In this document: positions 21,114-34,460 of the stretch, one piece after another
Position numbering within the stretch: the first letter of the stretch is position 1
How the letters are laid out: every line of letters starts with the position of its first letter
Source: Candidatus Anoxymicrobiaceae bacterium
Lineage (GTDB): Bacteria > Actinomycetota > Geothermincolia > Fen-727 > Anoxymicrobiaceae
DNA length: 64,000 nucleotides
Direction: 5' to 3'
Assembly: GCA_036845225.1 (NCBI GenBank)
Contig: DAIUEJ010000007.1
Span: forward strand, 6,578 to 70,577
The notes under the pieces: model-generated
The model's input: only the letters and a program-made list of their open reading frames with translations
Database searches by the model: none
Told to the model about the DNA's origin: nothing
Program-made: the position numbers and the translations under genes

Positions 21114-21136
21114 GGGTCTGACCCCAGAAAGTTTAG
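21114..21136. repeat. Palindromic element carrying the glycosyltransferase stop codon
   Basis: GGGTCTGACCCC-AGAAAGTTTAG; the same arm as the 9849-9872 copy. Confidence 0.85.
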
Positions 21137-22620
21137 TTGCTCCAGGTCAGCTCGACGGCAGTACCCCACTTGCTGTTGCGGGTTATCTTGTAAGGGACCC
21201 AATCCGCGAGCCCCGCGAGGAACGAATCCACCTGCCCCACGTCCGGCCGCGTCTTGATGTATATCCAGTCGGAGTTGTAGGGGATGGCGTATTGATCGAC
21301 CAGCTCTCTCGGCTTAGCCAGGATATTCGAGAACAGCGATATCTGCTTCGTGTTCCCGAGATAGTACGTGAGGATCGCGTCCCTGTTGATCTGCTTCTCG
21401 TCAAGGATCACCATGACCGGATTGCCCCCGGCCCGTGCCTTGAGGTATAGGGCGTCTTTCTTCACGCCCGCTGAATAGTCCCAGTAAGTCTTGTACCTCG
21501 CCCTGTTGTAGCTCAGGTAGCCGAGGGAGAACGCCGAGAAAACGGTGACCACGACAAGGGCTGCCACCAGCGCGGACTTCGTGGACCTCTCGGCCCAGGG
21601 GTTTGTCACCAGGCGCGGGACCATGCTCAGTATGCCGGCGGCTCCGATGCCGCACAGCATCGCGATAGCCGGCAACGCGGGCGGCACCATCCAGTACGGC
21701 TTGCCCACCGAGAGCGAAAGAAAGAGGTAGACGCCGAGGAACCAAACCACCGGCAGCGCGTAGTCCTTTTTCCCGTCCCGGATGCGCTTGTAGACGCAGA
21801 CCGCCAGACCCAGGGCCAGCAATGCCAGCATCAGCCATCCGATGTCTTTCGTGAGTCCCGTGAAGTAGTACCTGACAGGTTGCTTGAAGAGCGCGCCGTC
21901 CCCCGCGCCGCTCCAGAAGAAGCTCCAGAAGTGACCCACGCCCGTCGCGAGCCAGGCGTACCACCAGAAGGACATCACGAACCCGATCCCGGCGATGAAG
22001 GCGGTCTGCTTCAGTTTCTCCCTGTCCCAGCAAGCCAGGGAGAACAGGAATACAGCCATGAGCGCGAATATCGCCGTCTCCTTGGTCAGCATCCCGAGGC
22101 CGAAGACGACTCCGGCCCACTTCCAGCTTCCGCGCACGAACAGGTAGATAGTGAGGACGATGAGAAAGCCGACCATCGGGTCCTGCTTGACCCAGGTGTC
22201 CATGACGACAGCCGCCGGCATGACCGCGAGCACGAACGCGGCGAGCAGCGCGACCCCCTGGCTGAAAAGCCGTTTCGCGATCGCGTATGTCACGACGAGC
22301 GTGCCGAAGGAGAAGAGTATCGAAAAGACCTTATAAGCAATGACCCTGGCCCCGAAAGCCTTGGTGAGGAAAGCCATCAGCCAGAGGTAGAGCGGCGGGT
22401 GGATGTGTGAGAGCGAGGACCACACGTCCCTGGTGCCCGCGCTGAACGACTTGATGGTCAGGGCAAGCTGCGCCTCGTCCCGTCCCAGGAGCTGGTTGAT
22501 GTAACGCAGCCTGAGGACGAGGAAGAGCGCCGCGATGGCGGCAAGCCGCCCATACCAGCCATTTCCGGCTGCTATCAGTGGAGGTCTCGCCGTCGGTTTC
22601 CTCGGCAGTCGCTTTCTCAT
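21133..22620 (-). CDS. GT-C fold glycosyltransferase (GT39/ArnT/PMT-like)
   Basis: RDEAQ...HPPLY near the N-terminus, many TM segments, GMLTKETA; true start is likely ATG 22620 because the longer ORF only translates the repeat. Confidence 0.85.
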   Translation of the reverse strand: MRKRLPRKPTARPPLIAAGNGWYGRLAAIAALFLVLRLRYINQLLGRDEAQLALTIKSFSAGTRDVWSSLSHIHPPLYLWLMAFLTKAFGARVIAYKVFSILFSFGTLVVTYAIAKRLFSQGVALLAAFVLAVMPAAVVMDTWVKQDPMVGFLIVLTIYLFVRGSWKWAGVVFGLGMLTKETAIFALMAVFLFSLACWDREKLKQTAFIAGIGFVMSFWWYAWLATGVGHFWSFFWSGAGDGALFKQPVRYYFTGLTKDIGWLMLALLALGLAVCVYKRIRDGKKDYALPVVWFLGVYLFLSLSVGKPYWMVPPALPAIAMLCGIGAAGILSMVPRLVTNPWAERSTKSALVAALVVVTVFSAFSLGYLSYNRARYKTYWDYSAGVKKDALYLKARAGGNPVMVILDEKQINRDAILTYYLGNTKQISLFSNILAKPRELVDQYAIPYNSDWIYIKTRPDVGQVDSFLAGLADWVPYKITRNSKWGTAVELTWSN

Positions 22621-22655
22621 CCATGAGTTGATTAATTGTATCTCAGGGGTGTTGC

Positions 22656-22760
22656 GAAAATGCACCACTGGGGTCAGGCACCGGTGGTGCATTTCTGGAA
22701 GTCTGCGATCGTGCACGGAGAAAATGCACCACCGGTGCCTGACCCCAGTGGTGCGTTTTC
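22656..22760. repeat. Inverted doublet of palindromic elements (REPIN-like)
   Basis: GAAAATGCACCACT-GGGGTCAGGCACC-GGTGGTGCATTT and its inverted copy at 22720-22760 (38/39 identical), about 25-nt spacer. Confidence 0.92.
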
Positions 22761-23589: not shown

Positions 23590-23966
23590 TTCAATCCCCC
23601 CAACAGTCACGACAACTACCGATTGCGGCACATCCATCATTCGGCGCGGGGCCGGGCAATCCTGCGATGGCGCCGCAGGGGGGAAACCTTGACGTCCGTC
23701 ATGGAGCGACGATTTGCGCGCGGGTAGTATGCCGGTATGGAAAGAACGAGAAGGTGTACCAGATCACACGACGTAGACGGCCAGAAAAAGAATCTTCTCG
23801 TGAAGTAGGAGTCCGGATTTACAGGGTGAATAAAGCCCCAGAAGTAGAACCCGCGAACGCTAGAGACGACACCTGAGCAGACTTGTAGGCCAAGGTTTGC
23901 CGCTAGCGCTACGCAGGTCCGGTAAGTCAGGCACGTTTGTGCCAGGTTCAAAGGAGTTGGTTTTCC

Positions 23967-26900
23967 ATGCATCACTCGAGGAAACCCGCGACAAGGACGA
24001 TTGCCCCGATTCTCGCATTCCTTTTAGTTGCCGCCTTCTTCCTGGCAGGCGCGGGCCCGATCGCCGCGAAGCCGACGCCGGCCGCGCCGAAGGCTCAAAC
24101 GCAGCCGGCGGCCAACCCGGCGCAATCACCTGTGAGAACTCAGGACTCGAAACGCACAACGGCCGCGGACAGACAGGCCGCGGCGGACCGTGCGCAGGCT
24201 CAGGGACTGACACCGGGGGTGGCGAAGAGCGGCGGCGCGGTGCCGACGCCTGGAGGCGTACCTGACTACTTCGGCCCTTATCCTAACTACGCAAACAGCC
24301 CCCTGCCCACGGCGATTGCCGCGTTTCCTTATCCGACGTTCTACTTCGCTGAGGGCACGACCCGGCCGAATTTTGAGACTTACTTCACTATCCAGAACCC
24401 GGGCACCAAGACGGCAAACGTCAGGCTGACCTACATGAGAGGGAATGGCCAGAACGCAGTCGTTACTGTGGCTGTTCCAAAGAACACCAGGTCCACCATC
24501 AATCCGGTGAGCACCCTGGGCAGCGCGGACGATGCCGCTCACGACTTCAGCACCAAGGTCGAGTCCCTCAACAAAGTGCAGGTCATAGTCGAGCGCCCGA
24601 TGTATTTCAACTACAAGGGTGTCTGGACAGGCGGGTCCGACGCGGTGGGGGCAACCGCCACGGCGTCTGCGTTCTATTTCGCGGAAGGGACGTGCCGGCC
24701 CAACTTCGATGCTTACTTCACGATTCAGAACCCCGGAAACAATAACGCGATCATCCAGCTGACCTACATGAAGGGTGACGGCACAGTAGTCACGCAGGGC
24801 TTTGGCGTGACAGCCCATACGCGCGGAACGGTACACCCCGCGGACACGCTGGGGGTCGGCGACGACGCGGCCCATGACTTCAGCACATCGATAGTCTGCA
24901 CCAACGGTCAGAAGATAGTCGCCGAGCGGCCACAGTACTTCAACTACAAGGGGGTCTGGACCGGAGGCCACGACGTCGTAGGCGCCACGGCGGGCGCGAA
25001 GCAATACTACTTCGCGGAGGGCACCAGCCGGCCGAACTTCATCCCTTACCTCACGATACAGAACCCGAACGCGGGCTCGGTGCCCGTCAAGATAACCTAC
25101 TTCATGGCTGACGGAACGAGGAAAACGCAGAACATGACGCTCGCTCCTCATTCAAGAAGCACAGCCATTCCCTCGGACATCATAGGCTCGGGCGACGTAG
25201 GGCATGACTTCAGTTCAAAAGTCGAAAGCACGAACGGGAAGAACATCATCGTCGAGCGGCCGATGTACTTCAACTACAACAACGCCTGGACCGGCGGCTC
25301 GGACGTGATGGGCGCGACCGCTTCCGCGCCGGCATACTACTTCGCGGAGGGCACCAGCCGGCCCAACTTCGACCCGTATCTTTGCATACTCAACCCGGGA
25401 GACACGGTCGCCAACCTGACCATCACATACATGAAGGGTAACTCAACGACCTCGACTCAGCTCATTTCAGTGCCTGCTTTTTCGCGAGGTACAATCTCAA
25501 TTCGTGAGAAGACGGGGACCGGGAATGACGCGGCCCACGACTTCAGCATCCGTGCCGAGTGCACGAACGGCCAGCGGGTCATAGTCGAGCGGCCGATGTA
25601 CTTCAACTACAACGGCGTATGGAACGGCGGTCACGATGCGGTCGGGCTTGCCTATCAGGCGGTCGGCGTCCAGACGGGCACCGGCGTCAGGAAGTTCGTC
25701 GATTCGCTCCCCGGACTCGGGGCGGCGAACGCCAACGACCTCGGGCAGTATATCCCGGTGGCCGTTCCCGACAAGACGAGCTTCCCCGGCTCGGACTACT
25801 ACGAGATACAGCTCGGGCAGTACAGGGAAAAACTCCACAAAGACCTTCCGTCGACCTTGCTGCGCGGCTACCGGCAGACCAACAGCTCGAATCCATCCGT
25901 GACGAAGTTCAGCTACCTGGGGCCGACGATCATCGCCCAGAAGGGCCGCCCGGTGAGGGTCAAGTTCACGAACAGCTTGCCGACCGGCGCGGGAGGAAAC
26001 CTGTTCATCCCCGTCGATACGACGGTCATGGGCGCGGGAATGGGCCCTGATGGAGTGAACGGCTACACCGAGAACCGCGCGGTCATCCACCTTCACGGCG
26101 GTAACACCCCGTGGATCAGTGACGGGACCATGCACCAGTGGATCACTCCGGCCGGGGAGACCACGCCGTATCCCCAGGGAGTCAGCGTGCAGAGCGTCCC
26201 CGACATGCCCCAGCCGACGGTTGGAGACGGGACCGAGACGTTCTACTACACAAACCAGCAGAGCGCCAGGTTGATGTTCTACCACGACCATGCGTACGGG
26301 ATAACCCGCCTGAACGTCTATGCGGGCGAAGCGGCGCCCTATCTGCTGCAGGACTCGACCGAGACCTCGCTCATCAACAGCAAGTCCATCCCGGCCGACC
26401 AGATCCCCCTGGTGATCCAGGACAAGACCTTCGTACCCGCCCCGGCGCAGCTCGCGGCCGAGGACCCGACATGGGACACGAGCAAATACGGAGGCAAGGG
26501 CAACCTCTGGTTCCCGCACGTATACATGCCAAACCAGAATCCTGGTAGCATCGATGGCGCCAACGCAATGGGGCGCTGGGATTACGGCCCGTGGTTCTGG
26601 CCGCCGTTCACAGGGATCACCAACGGACCGGTCGCGAACCCCTACTACGATCCTGTCAACGCACCCTGGGAGCCGAAGGTGATTCCGGGGACGCCCAATC
26701 CATCGATAGTACCTGAGGGGTTCATGGATACGCCCCTGGTCAACGGGACCGCTTATCCCTACGTGAAGGTGGGGCCCAAGGCATACCGGTTCCGGATACT
26801 GAACGCCTCTAACGACCGTACACTCAACCTCCAGATGTACTTCGCGAAGTCGAACGGGCAGATGTGGAAGTCGAACGGGACGCTCACCGACGGCGATGCC

Positions 26901-29195
26901 GGCGAAGTCGCCATGGTGCCCGCGGTTCCCAACAACGGCCTGCCGGCCAGCTGGCCGACAGACGGCCGTGACGGAGGCGTGCCTGACCCGGCCTCGAGCG
27001 GACCGGCCATGGTGCAGATCGGCAACGAAGGGGGCTTCCTCCCGCAGGCGGCCGTACTGCCCAACACGCCGGTAGGATACATCTATAACCGCAGGGACAT
27101 CACGGTCCTGAACGTGTCCAACAAGACGCTGATGCTGGGGCCGGCCGAGAGGGCCGACGTCATCATCGACTTCTCCAAGATCCCCGACGGCACCAAGCTC
27201 ATCATGTACAACGACGCTCCGGCTCCGGTACCGGCGTTCGACCCGCGCATCGACTACTACACGGGCGGACCGGACCTGACCTCTTCAGGTGGAGCGCCCA
27301 CCACGCTTCCGGGCTACGGCCCGAACACGAGGACGGTCATGCAATTCCAGGTGTCCTCGAGCGTGAAGACCGGGATGACGGGATTCAACGTGAACACGCT
27401 GATGAACCACCTGCCGGCAGCCTACGCGACGTACCAGGAGAAGCCGATAGTGCCGAACGCGGCCTACAACGCGGCGTTTAACGCGGCCTACCCTGCCGAT
27501 TCCTACTCGAGGATCCAGGACACCACGAAGGACTTCTTCAATGGCCCGCTTGCCGGCCTTGCCGTGACGAACATGGGAAGCGGCTATACCTCGGCACCGG
27601 GAGTCAACATCACCGGAGGCGGAGGGACGGGCGCTACAGGAGTGTCCGAGATATCGGGTGTCACATCGATTGCGATAACCAACGGGGGGAGCGGCTATAC
27701 CGTTCCTCCGGACATCGGCTTCACTGGCGGAGGAGGCGGTTCGGGAGCCGCGGCTACCGCGCTGATCTCGGGTGTCACGGGATTCACCATTACGAACTTT
27801 GGAACGGGCTATACCTCGCCTCCTGATGTCACAATCACTGGCGGAGGCGGGTCGGGGGCCACCGCGGTCGCTACCGTGGCGAACGGGTCAATCACGGCTG
27901 TCAACCTCACGAACGGCGGCAGCGGTTACTCGACGCCACCGACCGTCACGTTCACAGGCGGGGGTATCGGCCCCAACGGCGCCGCCGCAACCGCCAATAT
28001 CGCGGTCGGCTCGGTTACGGGGATCATCATCACCGACTCGGGCGGCAACTACACGGTCGCGCCCGGTGTGGCCTTCTCCGGGGGCGGCGGCGGTATAAAC
28101 GCGGCCGCGAATGCGTCGATAACGGTGGGCGCGGTCACCTGGGTGAAACTCACCAACCCGGGCAACAACTACTCCTCGGCGCCAACTGTGGCGCTGTCCG
28201 GAGGAGGAGGCGCCAATGCCACGGCGGTAGCGTTGCCGATCCACATGGACCTGACGCCGAAGGCGATCCAGGAGCTGTTCGATCCGTTCTACGGGCGGAT
28301 GAACGCTCAGTTGGGTGTCGAAATACCCAACACTACGATGATCACGCAGACGACTATCCCATACTTCGATACCGATCCCCCGACGGAGCTCATCAAGAAC
28401 TCCGACGCGGCGCAGCCTATCGGCTCGCTGGCGGACGGGACCCAGATCTGGAAGATCACACATAACGGTGTGGACACGCACGCCATCCACTGGCACATGT
28501 TCAACGTCCAGTTGATCAACCGCGTCGGATGGGACGGAATGGTGAAACCGCCGGACGCGAACGAAGTCGGTTGGAAAGAGACCGTGCGGATGAACCCGCT
28601 CGAGGACGTGATCGTGGCTCTCAGGCCGATCAAGCCCAACATCCCGTGGGACATCCCTAACAGCATACGGTTGCTCGACCCGACGATGCCACTGAACAGC
28701 ACGATTAACTTCACGAGCATGGACCCGGCAGGTCAGCCCGCGCCAGTCCTCAACCACGAGATAAACTACGGCTGGGAGTACGTGTGGCACTGCCACCTGC
28801 TCGGCCACGAGGAGAATCTCATGATGCGCCCGATGTCCTTCGGAGAGGCGCCGATAGCGGCCAGCGGCCTGAGCGGCGCCGGACCGGCGGGCGGAGTCGC
28901 GCTCTCGTGGACCGACAACTCCAAGAACGAGACCAACTGGACGATCATGCGGTCAACGAGTCTGACCGGGCCGTTTGCCAAGATCGACCAGGTGGCATCG
29001 ACAACGGGGCCTGCCACAGGCGGGACGATAAACTACACCGACACCACGGCGGCAGCCGCGACGACTTACTACTACCAGATAATCGCAAACAACATCATCG
29101 GGGATACCACACCTTACACGGCGCCGGTCGTCGGGTATCCGAACATGTCGATGGATGCGACGGCGTCCAACACGGCGACGGTGGTCGTGCCCTGA
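23967..29195 (+). CDS. Very large secreted multicopper oxidase (OmpB/CotA-like) with 4 N-terminal ~111-aa repeats, 6 Gly-rich repeats and a C-terminal FN3-like domain
   Basis: Signal peptide; Cu motifs HLHG (~26088), YHDH (~26280), HAIHWH (~28479), WHCHLLGHEENLM (~28785); LSWTDNSKNET...YYYQI at the C-terminus. Confidence 0.92.
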   Translation: MHHSRKPATRTIAPILAFLLVAAFFLAGAGPIAAKPTPAAPKAQTQPAANPAQSPVRTQDSKRTTAADRQAAADRAQAQGLTPGVAKSGGAVPTPGGVPDYFGPYPNYANSPLPTAIAAFPYPTFYFAEGTTRPNFETYFTIQNPGTKTANVRLTYMRGNGQNAVVTVAVPKNTRSTINPVSTLGSADDAAHDFSTKVESLNKVQVIVERPMYFNYKGVWTGGSDAVGATATASAFYFAEGTCRPNFDAYFTIQNPGNNNAIIQLTYMKGDGTVVTQGFGVTAHTRGTVHPADTLGVGDDAAHDFSTSIVCTNGQKIVAERPQYFNYKGVWTGGHDVVGATAGAKQYYFAEGTSRPNFIPYLTIQNPNAGSVPVKITYFMADGTRKTQNMTLAPHSRSTAIPSDIIGSGDVGHDFSSKVESTNGKNIIVERPMYFNYNNAWTGGSDVMGATASAPAYYFAEGTSRPNFDPYLCILNPGDTVANLTITYMKGNSTTSTQLISVPAFSRGTISIREKTGTGNDAAHDFSIRAECTNGQRVIVERPMYFNYNGVWNGGHDAVGLAYQAVGVQTGTGVRKFVDSLPGLGAANANDLGQYIPVAVPDKTSFPGSDYYEIQLGQYREKLHKDLPSTLLRGYRQTNSSNPSVTKFSYLGPTIIAQKGRPVRVKFTNSLPTGAGGNLFIPVDTTVMGAGMGPDGVNGYTENRAVIHLHGGNTPWISDGTMHQWITPAGETTPYPQGVSVQSVPDMPQPTVGDGTETFYYTNQQSARLMFYHDHAYGITRLNVYAGEAAPYLLQDSTETSLINSKSIPADQIPLVIQDKTFVPAPAQLAAEDPTWDTSKYGGKGNLWFPHVYMPNQNPGSIDGANAMGRWDYGPWFWPPFTGITNGPVANPYYDPVNAPWEPKVIPGTPNPSIVPEGFMDTPLVNGTAYPYVKVGPKAYRFRILNASNDRTLNLQMYFAKSNGQMWKSNGTLTDGDAGEVAMVPAVPNNGLPASWPTDGRDGGVPDPASSGPAMVQIGNEGGFLPQAAVLPNTPVGYIYNRRDITVLNVSNKTLMLGPAERADVIIDFSKIPDGTKLIMYNDAPAPVPAFDPRIDYYTGGPDLTSSGGAPTTLPGYGPNTRTVMQFQVSSSVKTGMTGFNVNTLMNHLPAAYATYQEKPIVPNAAYNAAFNAAYPADSYSRIQDTTKDFFNGPLAGLAVTNMGSGYTSAPGVNITGGGGTGATGVSEISGVTSIAITNGGSGYTVPPDIGFTGGGGGSGAAATALISGVTGFTITNFGTGYTSPPDVTITGGGGSGATAVATVANGSITAVNLTNGGSGYSTPPTVTFTGGGIGPNGAAATANIAVGSVTGIIITDSGGNYTVAPGVAFSGGGGGINAAANASITVGAVTWVKLTNPGNNYSSAPTVALSGGGGANATAVALPIHMDLTPKAIQELFDPFYGRMNAQLGVEIPNTTMITQTTIPYFDTDPPTELIKNSDAAQPIGSLADGTQIWKITHNGVDTHAIHWHMFNVQLINRVGWDGMVKPPDANEVGWKETVRMNPLEDVIVALRPIKPNIPWDIPNSIRLLDPTMPLNSTINFTSMDPAGQPAPVLNHEINYGWEYVWHCHLLGHEENLMMRPMSFGEAPIAASGLSGAGPAGGVALSWTDNSKNETNWTIMRSTSLTGPFAKIDQVASTTGPATGGTINYTDTTAAAATTYYYQIIANNIIGDTTPYTAPVVGYPNMSMDATASNTATVVVP

Positions 29196-29227: not shown

Positions 29228-29258
29228 GCGCCCGCCTTTCGAGGCGGGCGCTTCCCTT
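29228..29258 (+). terminator. Intrinsic terminator-like hairpin between convergent genes
   Basis: GCGCCCGCCT-TTCG-AGGCGGGCGC followed by TTCCCTTT. Confidence 0.75.
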
Positions 29259-31769: not shown

Positions 31770-34460
31770 GTGGCAGGTACCTCTATCCGTATAAACGGCA
31801 AAAGGGTTTCAGCCTACCCGGGCTCAAGGATCATCGACCTCGCTTGCGACCTCGGCGTTCCGATTCCAACCTTGTGCGATCACCCGTTGCTTGCGCCCGC
31901 GGGCTACTGCGGAGTCTGCGTTGTCGAGGACATCGCGAGCGGCAGGCTCGTGACCGCGTGCGACACGCCCGCCAGGCCGGGCATGGATATCAGGACCGAC
32001 TCTCCCCGGGCCCTCGAGGCGCGAAGGCGGACTCTCGAGCTCATCCTCACCAACCACCCCGAGACCTGCGTCATCTGCGAGAAAGGAAACGCCTGCAGGC
32101 TCCGCGATCTTTCCTCGAGCATCGGGCTCGCGCTCTCGAGCGAGAAACGCGTCGGGACCCTGCGCGGGATAGTGGACGCGAACCCGTTCATCCACCGCGA
32201 CCTCTCTAAGTGCATAGGCTGCCAGATATGCGTACGCGCCTGCCGGGAGATACAGGGCGCCGAAGCCGTCGAGTTCACGGGGATCGGCACGGGCAGCATG
32301 CCCCTGACGGCGGAGGACCACGAGCTGGCGGGCTCGGATTGCGAGCTGTGCGGGCTCTGCGTCACCATGTGCCCTGTCGGCGCCCTGATCGAAAAGCCGA
32401 GCAAGCACACCGGTACTGAGGACAGGAGGGCGAACGTCATCTGCCCGTACTGCGGGGTCGGATGCACCCTCGAGCTGAGGATCCGTGAGGACGCGATAGT
32501 CAGCGTGGGAGCGGGCGTCGAGGGCTCGGTCAACGGCCCGAGCCTGTGTGCCAAGGGCAGATACGGGCTGGGTTACGTCGGACACCCCGACCGGCTGAAG
32601 GTGCCCCTGGTACGCGAAGGCGACGAGCTCGTCGAGACGACGTGGGAGGAAGCACTGTCGCGCGTGGCGGCGAACCTGCATCGCATGGTCAAGGATCACG
32701 GCCCCGACTCTGTAGGCGTGCTGGCGTCGGCAAAAGCGACCAACGAGGAGAACTACCTCATCCAGAAATTCGCCCGCGCCTGCATCGGCACCAACAACGT
32801 CGACCACTGCGCGAGGTTGTGACACAGCCCCACCGTCGCCGGTCTGGCGGCAGCGTTCGGCAGCGGAGCCATGACCAATTCGCTCGAGGACCTTGCGGAC
32901 GCCGACGTCATCCTGCTCACAGGTAGCAACACCATCGAGAACCATCCCGTCATCGCGCAGATGATCAAGACCGCTGTCCTGTCGGGCGGCACCCGGCTCA
33001 TCGTGAGCGACCCGAGGGACATCTCGATGGCACGATACGCCGAGGTGAGGCTCAGCCCGAGGCCCGGAACGGACGTCGCATGGCTCAACGGGATGGCCAA
33101 CGTGATATTGAGCGAGGGGCTGGCCGACGAGCGCTTCATACGGGAGCGCACCGAGGGCTCCGACGGGTGGCGCAAGTCGGTGGAGCGCTATACCCCCGAG
33201 TTCGTGCAGAAGATAACGGGCATCAAGCCCGCGGACTTACGAAAGGCGGCTCGCCTCTACGCGTCGGCCGGCGCGGCCGCGATCTACTACGCCATGGGCA
33301 TCACCCAGCACTCGACGGGCACCGATAACGTCAAGGCGATCGCAAACCTCGCGATGCTCACGGGCAACATCGGCAGGCCGGGCACGGGAGTCAACCCGTT
33401 GCGCGGCCAGAACAACGTGCAGGGCGCCTGCGATATGGGCGCGCTGCCCAACGTCTTCCCCGGCTACCAGCGGGTCGACGATGACGTGGTCCGGGGCAAG
33501 TTTGAGAAAGCCTGGGGCGTGAAGCTCCCCTCGAAGCCGGGGCTCACCGTAACCGAGATGATTGGTGCCGCCGCCAAGGGCAAGCTCAAGGCAATGTACA
33601 TCGTCGGAGAGAACCCGGTGCTGACCGAGCCGGACGCAAACCATGCCGTCGCGGCTCTCGGAAAGCTCGACTTCCTCGTCGTCCAGGACATATTCCTCAC
33701 CGAAACGGCGGCTCTCGCCGACGTTGTGCTGCCCGGTGCGGCCTCGGTTGAAAAGGAAGGGACCTTCACCAACACGGAGCGCATGGTCCAGAGGTCGCGC
33801 GCGGCCGTGCCCGCTCCCGGAGAGGCGCGCAGCGATGCCGACATAATCTGCGCCGTCGCGGGCCAGATGAAGTGCGCCATGACCTGCGGCAGTCCCTCGG
33901 ACGTCATGGACGAGATAGCTTCTCTCACGCCTTCGTACGGCGGCATGTCTCACAGCCGGCTTGCGCGGCACGGCATGCGCTGGCCGTGCCCTGATGCAAA
34001 GCACCGCGGCACAAGGATAATGCACTCGCGCGAGTTCACCCGCGGCAAGGGCAGGTTCCATCCCATCGACTACATCGAGCCGGCAGAGATGCCGGACGTC
34101 GATTACCCGTTGATCCTGACCACGGGCAGGATGCTCTACCAGTATCACTCGGGCTCGATGTCGCGCCGCTCGGCCGCGCTGGACGAATACACTCCGGCCG
34201 GCTGGGCTGAGCTGAACCCGAGCGATGCCAGGAGGCTGGGCATACGAGAGGGCGAACCCATCGCTCTGACCTCGCGGAGAGGCTCGGTCCGCACGACCGC
34301 CAGGCTGAGCCGCCGCTCTCCGAAGGGGGTCGTCTTCATGAGCTTCCACTTCGCCGAGGAGGCGGTCAACAAGCTTACGAATCCAGCTCTCGACAAAGAG
34401 GGAAAGATACCTGAGTTCAAGGTCTGCGCGGTCAAGGTCGAGCCTGCCGCGCGCGAGTGA
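31770..34460 (+). CDS. fdhA: Selenocysteine-containing formate dehydrogenase alpha subunit (N-terminal 2Fe-2S/4Fe-4S plus Mo/W-bisPGD domain)
   Basis: In-frame TGA at 32820-32822 in DHCARL-U-HSPTVAGL; the two track ORFs join in frame; CPYCGVGC, RGQNNVQGACDMG and PEFKVCAV motifs. Confidence 0.93.
32823..32856 (+). promoter_or_regulatory. Bacterial SECIS element
   Basis: Hairpin GTCGCC-GGTCT-GGCGGC (32835-32851) 12 nt after the UGA, as in fdhF-type SECIS elements. Confidence 0.85.

What the first reader, a model, noticed from the sequence alone, without database searches (positions are those of the whole stretch)
23967..29195. Giant modular multicopper oxidase in an apparent anaerobe
Seen: a signal peptide; four 110-111-aa repeats starting at 24339, 24672, 25005 and 25335 (YFAEG...ERPMYF); a complete MCO Cu-ligand set; six Gly-rich repeats (NxGSGYTxxPxVxxxGGGGxGA, ~27550-28240) inserted before the last cupredoxin domain; and an FN3-like tail. 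From memory, the core resembles Geobacter OmpB-type MCOs linked to metal-oxide reduction, and the Gly-rich repeat resembles phage structural proteins. Inference: a surface-displayed metal-redox or O2-scavenging enzyme on a stalk.
Basis: partly seen in the sequence, partly recalled or inferred. Interest (0 to 1): 0.62.

Follow-up and report, generated by a model that had tools for sequence, protein, structure and literature searches.

The report
Wall-anchored giant copper oxidase, anaerobe
An oxygen-avoiding peat actinobacterium encodes a 1742-residue secreted copper oxidase of the poorly understood MofA/OmpB family. It is fused to a four-repeat sugar-binding module that this whole bacterial class uses on dozens of surface proteins, so the enzyme is a real new variant of a widespread family rather than a one-off oddity.

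Summary
Window 23967-29195 (+) is one intact, monocistronic gene of 1742 aa. It encodes, in order:
- a Sec-type signal peptide;
- four 110-111-aa YFAEG repeats;
- a three-cupredoxin multicopper oxidase (MCO) with every Cu ligand and both proton-relay acids;
- six ~38-aa Gly-rich repeats inserted in the D2-D3 linker;
- an FN3-like tail.

**Core.** It belongs to a very large family (more than 6,000 homologues, 60-85% identical across phyla and in Methanoperedens). Two Geobacter MCOs flanked by mofB/mofC-like genes nest inside this family, so it is MofA/OmpB-type and not CotA-type.

**YFAEG block.** It is a tetrad of ASRT/TM1070-like (ASRAH, Pfam DUF5719) beta-sandwiches.
- 33 proteins of this genome carry it, and every relative searched up to class level has 31-79 matches.
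- Partner domains include amidase, NlpC/P60, SpoIID, L,D-transpeptidase, a protease and a second MCO.
- It is therefore most likely a cell-wall glycan anchor, not a stalk.

**Gly repeat.** It is shared with phage virion proteins, occurs in more than 9,000 protein clusters and sits at two different sites in this MCO family. It is common but uncharacterised.

**Genome.** It is 96% complete. It has no haem-copper oxidase, no cytochrome bd oxidase and no multihaem cytochromes.

**Verdict.** This is a surface-tethered, O2-reducing MCO. Substrate and physiological role remain inferred.

The parts
23952..23956 (+). Shine-Dalgarno AGGAG, 10 nt before the ATG
   Evidence: Read from the sequence.
23967..24068 (+). 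Sec-type signal peptide (residues 1-34; predicted cleavage after IAA)
   Evidence: Sequence. It has a basic n-region, a 19-residue hydrophobic core and an AxA-like site. There is no RR motif and no lipobox.
24069..24335 (+). Ala/Pro/Thr/Gln-rich low-complexity linker (residues 35-123)
   Evidence: Composition A19 P16 T8 Q7 G7 of 89 residues.
24336..25667 (+). Tetrad of YFAEG...ERPMYF repeats (residues 124-567; units start at about 24336, 24669, 25002, 25332). This is an ASRAH/DUF5719 tetrad and the predicted cell-envelope glycan anchor.
   Evidence: Pfam DUF5719 E 1.6e-6. AF2 pLDDT 95.7, pTM 0.93. A single unit matches TM1070 and ASRT with TM 0.77-0.82. Profile against the PDB: 1nc7 E 2.7e-6. 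33 paralogous tetrads occur in the genome.
25674..27551 (+). MCO cupredoxin domains 1 and 2 with an expanded D2 and D2-D3 linker (residues 570-1195). HLH lies at 26088-26096 and HDH at 26283-26291.
   Evidence: PDB sequence hit to CotA E 9e-39. Fold match to CotA, TM 0.80. More than 6,252 homologues.
27555..28241 (+). Six ~38-aa Gly-rich repeats (NxGxGYTxxPxVxxxGGGGxGA; residues 1197-1425) inserted at 'site A' of the D2-D3 linker
   Evidence: PHROG 701/708 E 2e-39 and 1e-33. No Pfam hit and no PDB sequence hit. Predicted all-beta, three strands per unit. 9,255 cluster representatives carry it.
28242..28841 (+). MCO cupredoxin domain 3 (residues 1426-1625). HAIHWH lies at 28479-28496 and HCHLLGHEENLM at 28788-28823.
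   Evidence: Pfam Cu-oxidase_2 E 9e-7. The ligands are invariant in the family.
28854..29192 (+). FN3-like beta-sandwich tail (residues 1630-1742)
   Evidence: AF2 strands. 36% identity to the post-D3 module of fn3-bearing relatives. Pfam fn3 itself is not significant.
29228..29251 (+). Intrinsic-terminator-like hairpin (10 bp, 9 GC) followed by a T-rich tail

Best explanation
The gene encodes a Sec-exported three-cupredoxin multicopper oxidase of the MofA/OmpB clade that is held on the cell envelope.

Anchor. The N-terminal tetrad of ASRT-like (ASRAH/DUF5719) beta-sandwich domains folds into one compact pseudo-tetramer. By inference, it binds a cell-wall or secondary-wall glycopolymer non-covalently. 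It would then play the same role as SLH or CWB2 triplets in other Gram-positive lineages.

Catalysis. The core has a complete T1 site (His, Cys, His, axial Met), a complete trinuclear cluster and both proton-relay acids. It should therefore take single electrons from an extracellular donor and reduce O2 to water. The most likely donors are Mn(II)/Fe(II) or humic and phenolic hydroquinones.

Appendages. The six Gly-rich repeats (probably three two-repeat units) and the FN3-like tail are beta-rich surface appendages on the catalytic body. By inference they act as adhesion or spacing modules of the kind used on phage virions.

Physiology. The organism has no respiratory oxidase and no c-type multihaem cytochromes. 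The enzyme and its smaller Tat-exported, tetrad-anchored paralogue most plausibly act when O2 intrudes, consuming O2 at the surface and oxidising metals or phenolics.

Status of the steps. Shown computationally: gene integrity, ligand set, fold, family placement, tetrad fold and its genome-wide distribution. Inferred: wall binding, the substrate, the physiological role and the function of the Gly array.
For: Gene integrity:
- SD, signal peptide and terminator are present.
- An independent assembly holds a 97%-identical 1742-aa protein, and a congener holds an 85%-identical 1647-aa one.

Catalytic competence:
- All 12 Cu-site residues plus the D116 and E498 equivalents are invariant in 51 sequences.
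- The AF2 model matches CotA (TM 0.80 over CotA).

Family placement:
- 60% identity to Geobacter MCOs with MofB (FKBP) and MofC-like (one haem motif plus Peripla_BP_6) neighbours. This is the cluster type described for OmpB/MofA in PMC5566968.
- Both Geobacter MCOs nest inside the family in the tree.

Anchor:
- Tetrad pLDDT 95.7, pTM 0.93.
- Fold and profile homology to TM1070 and ASRT.
- ASRAH tetrads were predicted to be sugar-binding pseudo-tetramers on secreted amidases (PMC2739507).
- 33 tetrad proteins occur in this genome, most with signal peptides.
- Partner domains: Amidase_3, NlpC/P60 plus SLH, SpoIID, YkuD, subtilase, C39-like peptidase, PGA_cap, GH116/malectin and a second MCO.
- The tetrad gives 31-79 matches per genome in all 31 genomes searched (own genome included), up to class level.

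Anaerobe:
- No COX1, no cytochrome bd subunit I and no ORF with two or more CxxCH motifs.
- Sec-FDH and methylene-THF reductase genes lie in the window.
Against:
- The substrate cannot be read from the sequence.
- The protein has no EXXE motif, which the literature notes for OmpB, and no Met-rich segment.
- No MofB/MofC-like partner exists in this genome or near any of the 80 non-Geobacter loci.
- The gene is patchy in the class (11 of 31 genomes), so it is accessory.
- Most MCOs are Tat substrates, whereas this one has a Sec-type signal, so copper loading outside the cell is assumed.
- Sugar binding by ASRAH domains is itself only a published prediction.
- The AF2 model of the catalytic part has low-confidence loops (mean pLDDT 74). 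Its coordinates could not be inspected, so the geometry of the Gly array relative to the core is unknown.
- If the signal peptide is not cleaved, the protein would also be membrane-tethered.
Confidence: 0.6

Rival explanations
1. O2-independent role in extracellular electron transfer to or from metal oxides, as proposed for Geobacter OmpB. The copper protein would bind Fe(III)/Mn(IV) minerals and take part in their reduction or dissolution under anoxia, rather than working as an oxidase.
For: - The family contains Geobacter OmpB/MofA-type genes. OmpB is required for reduction of insoluble Fe(III) oxide (PMC5566968).
- Close relatives occur in Methanoperedens, Anaeromyxobacter and Desulfosporosinus.
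- The organism has no O2 respiration.
- The adhesion-type appendages (FN3-like tail, Gly array) could bind minerals.
Against: - The genome has no multihaem cytochrome and no MofC-like haem protein to pass electrons to a wall-bound copper protein.
- It has no EXXE motif.
- The whole O2-reducing trinuclear site and proton relay are invariant.
- The same family at 60-74% identity is abundant in obligate aerobes such as Micromonospora and Neobacillus.
Confidence: 0.15
2. An ordinary laccase-type polyphenol oxidase. It would be displayed on the wall to detoxify or depolymerise peat phenolics and humics whenever traces of O2 are present, with no special link to metals.
For: - The nearest solved structures are the CotA laccase and bilirubin oxidases.
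- The T1 site has the Met axial ligand.
- Relatives come from fen and peat MAGs.
- Phenol oxidases matter in peat carbon cycling (PMC11153144).
- A second, CotA-like MCO in the genome is anchored the same way.
Against: - The core is far from CotA in the tree.
- The only genetic data for this clade concern Mn and Fe (PMC5566968).
- No substrate-pocket analysis was possible.
Confidence: 0.2
3. A copper-homeostasis cuprous oxidase of the CueO type, or an inactive adhesin that merely retains an MCO scaffold.
For: - There is a weak NCBIfam hit to CueO (E 8e-16, far below cut-off).
- Many accessory adhesion-like modules are present.
Against: - There is no Met-rich insert (Met 2.7%).
- All catalytic residues are invariant under strong conservation, 60-85% across phyla.
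- The FtsP/SufI-type loss of ligands is not seen.
Confidence: 0.05

Closest known systems
MofA (Leptothrix discophora) / OmpB and OmpC (Geobacter sulfurreducens) large extracellular multicopper oxidases
   Same: - Large size, with an expanded D2/linker: about 560 residues between Cu motifs 1 and 3, against about 314 in CotA.
- 60% identity over 620 aa to Geobacter MCOs that sit in mofB/mofC-like clusters, and these nest in one clade with it.
- An extra beta-sandwich (FN3-type) C-terminal module.
- A surface or extracellular location.
   Different: - No mofB/mofC-like or SCO1 neighbours; the gene is monocistronic.
- No EXXE motif.
- An N-terminal ASRAH tetrad anchor in a Gram-positive-type envelope rather than outer-membrane association.
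- A six-repeat Gly array in the D2-D3 linker.
- The host has no cytochromes.
- Authentic GSU1394 and MofA sequences were not compared directly; the link goes through a Geobacter MAG.
ASRAH superfamily (ASRT of Anabaena, TM1070; secreted amidase-linked tetrads of Chloroflexi; actinobacterial dyad lipoprotein = Pfam DUF5719), De Souza, Iyer and Aravind 2009 (PMC2739507)
   Same: - Same beta-sandwich fold (TM 0.77-0.82).
- Profile E 2.7e-6 to TM1070.
- Conserved W...N positions.
- Occurs as a tetrad on secreted proteins.
- An amidase fusion is also present in this genome.
   Different: - The 2009 paper reported secreted tetrads as always fused to an amidase.
- Here the tetrad sits on 33 proteins of one genome with at least 15 different partner domains.
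- It gives 31-79 matches per genome throughout a class of Actinomycetota, i.e. it is a general display module.
- The ligand is unknown in both cases.
CotA laccase / bilirubin oxidase (Bacillus)
   Same: - Three-cupredoxin fold.
- Identical ligand set and proton-relay residues.
- The best solved-structure match (E 9e-39, TM 0.80).
   Different: - Only about 18% identity in the structural alignment.
- About 250 extra residues in D2 and the linker, plus the 229-residue Gly array.
- A branch of about 5.8 substitutions/site separates a CotA-like MCO from this family.
- Secreted and anchored rather than a spore-coat protein.
SLH and CWB2 cell-wall-binding repeat modules of Gram-positive bacteria
   Same: - A fixed number of tandem repeats forms one pseudo-symmetric unit.
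- The unit is attached N- or C-terminally to many unrelated exo-enzymes, especially peptidoglycan hydrolases.
- This is an analogy of use, from established knowledge.
   Different: - Unrelated fold and sequence.
- Four repeats rather than three.
- Binding to a wall polymer has not been shown.
Gly-rich G-x-G-Y-T...P-x-V...GGGG-x-GA repeats of phage virion, baseplate and tail-fibre proteins (PHROG 701, 708, 460, 5342)
   Same: - Same repeat at E 1e-23 to 2e-39.
- 28-40% identity to cyanophage structural proteins in BFVD.
   Different: - Here it is an internal insertion in an enzyme.
- No Pfam family and no solved structure were found for the repeat.

Membership tests
Three-domain multicopper oxidase (laccase-like, active) | Four Cu-binding motifs: HxH, HxH, HxxHxH and HCHxxxHxxxxM (10 His, 1 Cys, axial Met) | tested here: met
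   Residues 708/710, 773/775, 1505/1508/1510 and 1608-1619. All are invariant in 51 homologues.
Three-domain multicopper oxidase (laccase-like, active) | Three cupredoxin domains with the trinuclear site between D1 and D3 | tested here: met
   The AF2 model against CotA 1w6l gives E 2e-31 and TM 0.80 normalised on CotA. This is a model, not a structure.
Three-domain multicopper oxidase (laccase-like, active) | Copper content and O2-dependent substrate oxidation | not testable with these tools
   Needs expression and assay.
MofA/OmpB-type large extracellular MCO | Closer to MofA/OmpB than to CotA, CueO or other MCOs in sequence and phylogeny | tested here: met
   60% identity and E 1e-182 to a Geobacter MCO with MofB- and MofC-like neighbours. 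Both Geobacter MCOs nest inside the family, while a CotA-like outgroup lies on a 5.8 branch. Caveat: identification of the Geobacter genes as OmpB/OmpC-type rests on size and gene context, not on GSU1394 itself.
MofA/OmpB-type large extracellular MCO | Operon with mofB (PPIase), mofC (haem plus periplasmic-binding domain) or an SCO1 copper chaperone | tested here: not met
   The neighbours are on the opposite strand. No MofC-like protein is found in the genome or in the 80 non-Geobacter loci.
MofA/OmpB-type large extracellular MCO | FN3 domain and EXXE Fe(III)-binding motifs (reported for OmpB) | tested here: inconclusive
   An FN3-like tail is present but below the Pfam threshold. There are zero EXXE motifs.
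MofA/OmpB-type large extracellular MCO | Role in Mn(II) oxidation or Fe(III)/Mn(IV) oxide reduction | not testable with these tools
   Needs biochemistry or genetics.
ASRAH superfamily (ASRT/TM1070-like; Pfam DUF5719/ASRT) | ASRT-type beta-sandwich fold | tested here: met
   Foldseek probability 1.00, TM 0.77-0.82 and rmsd 2-3 A to 1nc7 and 2ii7-9 for a single repeat.
ASRAH superfamily (ASRT/TM1070-like; Pfam DUF5719/ASRT) | Significant sequence or profile similarity | tested here: met
   Pfam DUF5719 E 1.6e-6, above cut-off. The tetrad profile against the PDB gives 1nc7 E 2.7e-6 and 2ii7 E 6e-4.
ASRAH superfamily (ASRT/TM1070-like; Pfam DUF5719/ASRT) | Tetrameric or pseudo-tetrameric assembly | tested here: inconclusive
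   There are always four units per module, and pTM 0.93 indicates one rigid body. The model coordinates could not be inspected for four-fold symmetry.
ASRAH superfamily (ASRT/TM1070-like; Pfam DUF5719/ASRT) | Sugar or glycan binding | not testable with these tools
   This is only predicted in PMC2739507. Here it is supported by the partner domains.
MnxG-type six-domain Mn oxidase | Six cupredoxin domains | tested here: not met
   There is one set of four Cu motifs and a three-domain fold match. No MnxG sequence was placed in the tree.

The most novel reading that the evidence does not exclude
The ASRAH tetrad may be the principal surface-display system of an entire uncultured class of Actinomycetota (Geothermincolia-like), with 31-79 matches per genome. 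It would bind an unknown wall glycopolymer as an intramolecular pseudo-tetramer, which would make it a fourth major Gram-positive wall-anchoring system beside sortase/LPXTG, SLH and CWB2. On that platform, cytochrome-free, oxidase-free anaerobes display copper oxidases of the MofA/OmpB clade. The same clade has been exchanged with Methanoperedens, Anaeromyxobacter and Clostridia. These oxidases would be the cells' only extracellular redox catalysts, either as an external O2 sink or as a copper-based route of electron exchange with Mn/Fe or humics.
Probability: 0.3. Interest if true: 0.7.

Novelty: new variant of a known kind. Interest (0 to 1): 0.5.

Why it matters
1. MofA/OmpB-type MCOs have been linked genetically to Mn oxidation and Fe(III)-oxide reduction for about 20 years without a biochemical mechanism. 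This family turns out to be huge. It is extraordinarily conserved across phyla and domains, and present in both aerobes and strict anaerobes. That makes it a good target for structure and enzymology, and soluble, monocistronic Gram-positive versions like this one are easier to express than the Geobacter outer-membrane ones.

2. The YFAEG tetrad gives a concrete, testable candidate for how a whole uncultured actinobacterial class attaches exo-enzymes to its wall. It also extends the 2009 ASRAH prediction well beyond amidases.

3. O2-dependent oxidases on the surface of oxidase-free acetogen-like peat bacteria bear on how anaerobes cope with fluctuating water tables, and on phenol-oxidase ('enzyme latch') budgets in peat.

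4. The Gly-rich repeat is a very common module of phages and bacteria (more than 9,000 clusters) for which the Pfam and PDB searches run here found no family and no structure.

Tried and rejected
- **Conserved gene neighbours.** An all-against-all BLAST of ORFs within 8 kb in 83 loci found only generic ABC ATPase/permease clusters shared by a few loci. No operon partner for the window gene emerged.
- **MofC-like and MofB-like partners.** They are present beside both Geobacter genes. A MofC-like protein is absent from this genome and from all other loci.
- **Fetching G. sulfurreducens through its PilA sequence.** This did not return that species. Geobacteraceae MAGs were used instead, so the OmpB link is indirect.
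- **Pfam on the whole protein.** It gave almost nothing because the family is divergent from Pfam's MCO models. Splitting the protein was needed.
- **Gly array.** Pfam and PDB sequence searches returned nothing. A literature search for such an insert in MCOs also found nothing, and 'DUF5719' occurs in no paper of the library.
- **DNA-level tandem repeats.** None were found in either array, so the arrays are old and not recent slippage products.
- **Rfam, 20-36 kb.** No RNA family was detected, including no SECIS-type hit.
- **Rejected readings.** MnxG-type six-domain oxidase (only one ligand set and a three-domain fold). CueO-type oxidase (no Met-rich region). Pseudogene or assembly chimera (the same architecture occurs in independent assemblies at 85-97% identity).
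Full report
**1. Observation**

The window holds one long ORF on the + strand, 23937-29195.
- The ATG at 23967 is preceded by AGGAG at 23952-23956.
- The stop codon is followed by a 10-bp, 9-GC hairpin with a T-rich tail at 29228-29251.
- The upstream genes (alpha/beta hydrolase and a PMT_2 glycosyltransferase) and the downstream genes (YrhK-like, 4Fe-4S protein) are on the opposite strand. The gene is therefore monocistronic.

- a Sec-type signal peptide;
- an 89-residue Ala/Pro/Thr/Gln linker;
- four 110-111-aa repeats (YFAEG at 24342, 24675, 25008 and 25338, each closed by ERPxYF, 50-58% identical);
- the four Cu motifs HLH(708), HDH(773), HAIHWH(1505) and HCHLLGHEENLM(1608);
- six ~38-aa Gly-rich repeats at residues 1197-1425;
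- a C-terminal beta-sandwich with the FN3 sequence pattern.

Pfam on the intact protein is almost blind to it. On pieces it gives DUF5719 for the YFAEG repeats and Cu-oxidase_2/_3 for the core. It gives nothing for the Gly array or the tail.

**2. The catalytic core**

Fold and catalytic residues:
- By sequence, the nearest solved structures are the CotA laccases (E 9e-39).
- An AlphaFold2 model of residues 570-1742, built on 51 family members, has mean pLDDT 74 and pTM 0.74. It superposes on CotA with TM 0.80 normalised on CotA. This is a three-cupredoxin MCO, not a six-domain MnxG type.
- In the 51-sequence alignment all ten His, the Cys and the axial Met are invariant. So are D719 and E1615, the equivalents of CotA D116 and E498 in the proton relay. 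The O2-reducing machinery is intact.

Size and spread of the family:
- The family is unusually conserved. The 626-residue D1-D2 region is 73-74% identical to Neobacillus proteins in the protein search. Whole-core identities in the 51-row alignment and the locus search are about 57-63% to Micromonospora, 56% to Anaeromyxobacter and 61% to Candidatus Methanoperedens.
- Source annotations are only generic: 'FtsP/CotA-like multicopper oxidase', 'fibronectin type III domain-containing protein'.

**3. OmpB/MofA or CotA?**

I reached Geobacteraceae genomes through pilin loci and searched them with the core.
- Geobacter sp. L1geo has two homologues of 1282 and 1342 aa, each 60% identical to the core. 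The first aligns over 620 of 626 residues at E 1e-182. The second aligns at E 2e-129 over residues 82-568, with a separate match over residues 5-72.
- The first lies next to an FKBP-type PPIase and a 572-aa protein with one CxxCH and a Peripla_BP_6 domain.
- The second lies next to a 581-aa protein of the same kind.
- This matches the mofA-mofB-mofC / ompB cluster type described in PMC5566968.

In a maximum-likelihood tree (753 columns, inserts removed) both Geobacter proteins nest inside the family. The genome's own CotA-like MCO sits on a branch of 5.8 substitutions per site.

Limits to the assignment:
- GSU1394 and Leptothrix MofA themselves were not compared.
- The window protein has no EXXE motif.
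- It has no mofB/mofC-like partner anywhere in the genome.

Within the family the window protein groups with two Actinomycetota MAGs, fen_680 and an Anoxymicrobiaceae MAG (support 100). This trio is sister, in a starred clade (98), to Methanoperedens, two Neobacillus species and a Chitinophagales MAG. That pattern points to lateral transfer across phyla and domains.

**4. The YFAEG block**

An HMM built from the four repeats finds the same block in 33 proteins of this 2.7-Mb genome, plus fragments.
- The block always has four units. Usually it is C-terminal and sometimes N-terminal, and most carriers have signal peptides.
- Partner domains: N-acetylmuramoyl-L-alanine amidase, NlpC/P60 (with an SLH domain), SpoIID, L,D-transpeptidase, subtilase, C39-like peptidase, PGA_cap, two malectin/GH116-like proteins, FG-GAP, NHL, Big_13, TIG and DUF362.
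- A second MCO also carries it. This one is CotA-like, has a twin-arginine signal and a full ligand set, and lies at genome contig C5:79074-82034.

The AF2 model of residues 118-572 is very confident (pLDDT 95.7, pTM 0.93), which indicates one rigid body.
- A single unit superposes on Thermotoga TM1070 and on the Anabaena sensory rhodopsin transducer (probability 1.0, TM 0.77-0.82).
- The tetrad profile finds TM1070 by sequence at E 2.7e-6.

De Souza, Iyer and Aravind (PMC2739507) defined this 'ASRAH' superfamily.
- They predicted sugar binding in a cleft at the dimer interface.
- They noted that secreted versions occur as dyads (the actinobacterial lipoprotein, now DUF5719) or as tetrads 'always fused to an amidase' in Chloroflexi.
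- They proposed that tetrads mimic the ASRT homotetramer.

Here the tetrad is a general-purpose module. It gives 31-79 matches per genome in all 31 genomes searched (own genome included), up to class level. The partner set, dominated by peptidoglycan-active enzymes and exo-enzymes, is the classic signature of a wall-binding anchor by analogy with SLH and CWB2 (established knowledge). I therefore read the block as a cell-envelope glycan anchor and not a stalk. Binding itself is an inference.

**5. The Gly-rich array**

- It matches phage virion, baseplate and tail-fibre PHROGs at E 2e-39 to 1e-23.
- In the BFVD fold search it matches cyanophage structural proteins at 28-40% identity.
- It has no Pfam family and no PDB relative by sequence.
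- An exhaustive phmmer search finds it in 9,255 cluster representatives (2,858 at E<=1e-10), mostly proteins of 1,000-7,000 aa.

Within the MCO family:
- About 25 of the 80 loci carry arrays in the D2-D3 linker.
- The arrays sit at two different sites. Site A is at query residue ~1191 (this protein, Neobacillus citreus and cucumis, Methanoperedens, Anaeromyxobacter, Planctomycetota, Chloroflexia). Site B is at ~1135-1141 (Desulfosporosinus and other Clostridia).
- Some members also have N-terminal arrays of up to about 37 units.
- Site-A copy numbers are 2, 6 or 8. The closest relatives differ: 6 here and in fen_680, 2 in the Anoxymicrobiaceae MAG. This suggests a two-repeat structural unit and repeated gain and loss.
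- There is no DNA-level repeat.
- The model predicts three strands per unit.

The insert is therefore common but uncharacterised. Because it lies inside the enzyme, it cannot be the tether between wall and enzyme. I infer a protruding adhesion or spacer appendage.

**6. The organism**

- The assembly is 96.4% complete and 0.06% contaminated. It has no haem-copper oxidase and no cytochrome bd subunit I, and the controls for both searches were positive.
- It has no ORF with two or more CxxCH motifs.
- It has exactly two MCOs.
- The window also carries a selenocysteine formate dehydrogenase (HCARLUHS, TGA at 32820-32822), an NADH-dehydrogenase-type subunit and a methylene-THF-reductase C-terminal domain protein. 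These are consistent with Wood-Ljungdahl-type anaerobic metabolism.
- The nearest named genomes are Candidatus Anoxymicrobiaceae and Candidatus Solincola.
- The MofA/OmpB-type MCO is accessory in the class: 11 of 31 genomes, always in ORFs of 1,558-1,678 aa where these are complete, a length that implies the tetrad is attached.

**7. Mechanism and verdict**

Best-supported reading: a Sec-exported, tetrad-anchored, catalytically competent MofA/OmpB-clade MCO. It oxidises an extracellular one-electron donor (Mn(II)/Fe(II) or humic and phenolic hydroquinones) and reduces O2 to water at the cell surface. It would be useful to an oxidase-free anaerobe when O2 intrudes.

Rival readings cannot be excluded without biochemistry:
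- an OmpB-like, O2-independent role at metal oxides;
- a plain polyphenol oxidase;
- a CueO-like role.

The first is weakened by the absence of any cytochrome partner, by the invariant O2-reducing site and by the family's abundance in aerobes.

It is best classed as a new variant of a known kind: a known MCO clade, a computationally known anchor superfamily in a new and much wider role, and a common but unnamed repeat.

Noticed in passing
genome contig C5:79074-82034 (outside the window): A second multicopper oxidase. It is CotA-like, has three domains and about 545 aa, carries a twin-arginine signal (RREFLK) and the full Cu ligand set, and is fused C-terminally to the same YFAEG/ASRAH tetrad. 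These are the only two MCOs in a genome without respiratory oxidases.
   Followed up: partly
window 31770-34460 (+): The formate dehydrogenase alpha subunit appears as two ORFs in one frame, split by a TGA at 32820-32822. Reading TGA as Sec gives the classic HCARLUHS active-site motif, so this is a selenocysteine FDH. It is followed by an NADH-dehydrogenase-F-like subunit and a methylene-THF reductase C-terminal domain protein. Rfam found no SECIS element at the gathering threshold.
   Followed up: partly
whole genome G000 and 30 relatives: The four-unit ASRAH tetrad gives 31-79 matches per genome in every genome of the class searched. It is fused to peptidoglycan hydrolases, proteases, glycosidases and beta-propellers. 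The 2009 description of the superfamily knew secreted tetrads only on amidases.
   Followed up: yes
window 21133-22716 (-): A PMT_2/GT39-like glycosyltransferase lies one gene upstream of the MCO gene, on the opposite strand, beyond the alpha/beta hydrolase gene. The MCO's N-terminal Ala/Pro/Thr-rich linker could be an O-glycosylation substrate, but nothing was tested.
   Followed up: no
L008 and L051 (Candidatus Methanoperedens), L023 (Dehalococcoidia): Archaeal Methanoperedens MCOs fall in the same starred clade as the window protein. They carry Gly arrays both N-terminally and in the D2-D3 linker. A Dehalococcoidia homologue of about 4,057 aa carries about 37 Gly repeats.
   Followed up: partly
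L006, L007, L018, L021, L058, L080 and Geobacter L172: A MacB/FtsX-type ABC transporter (ATPase plus permease) recurs next to the MCO gene in one subclade of the family, including one Geobacter locus. It is not present at the window gene.
   Followed up: no
genome G000: No stop-to-stop ORF of 60 aa or more contains two or more CxxCH motifs, so the organism appears to lack multihaem c-type cytochromes altogether.
   Followed up: partly
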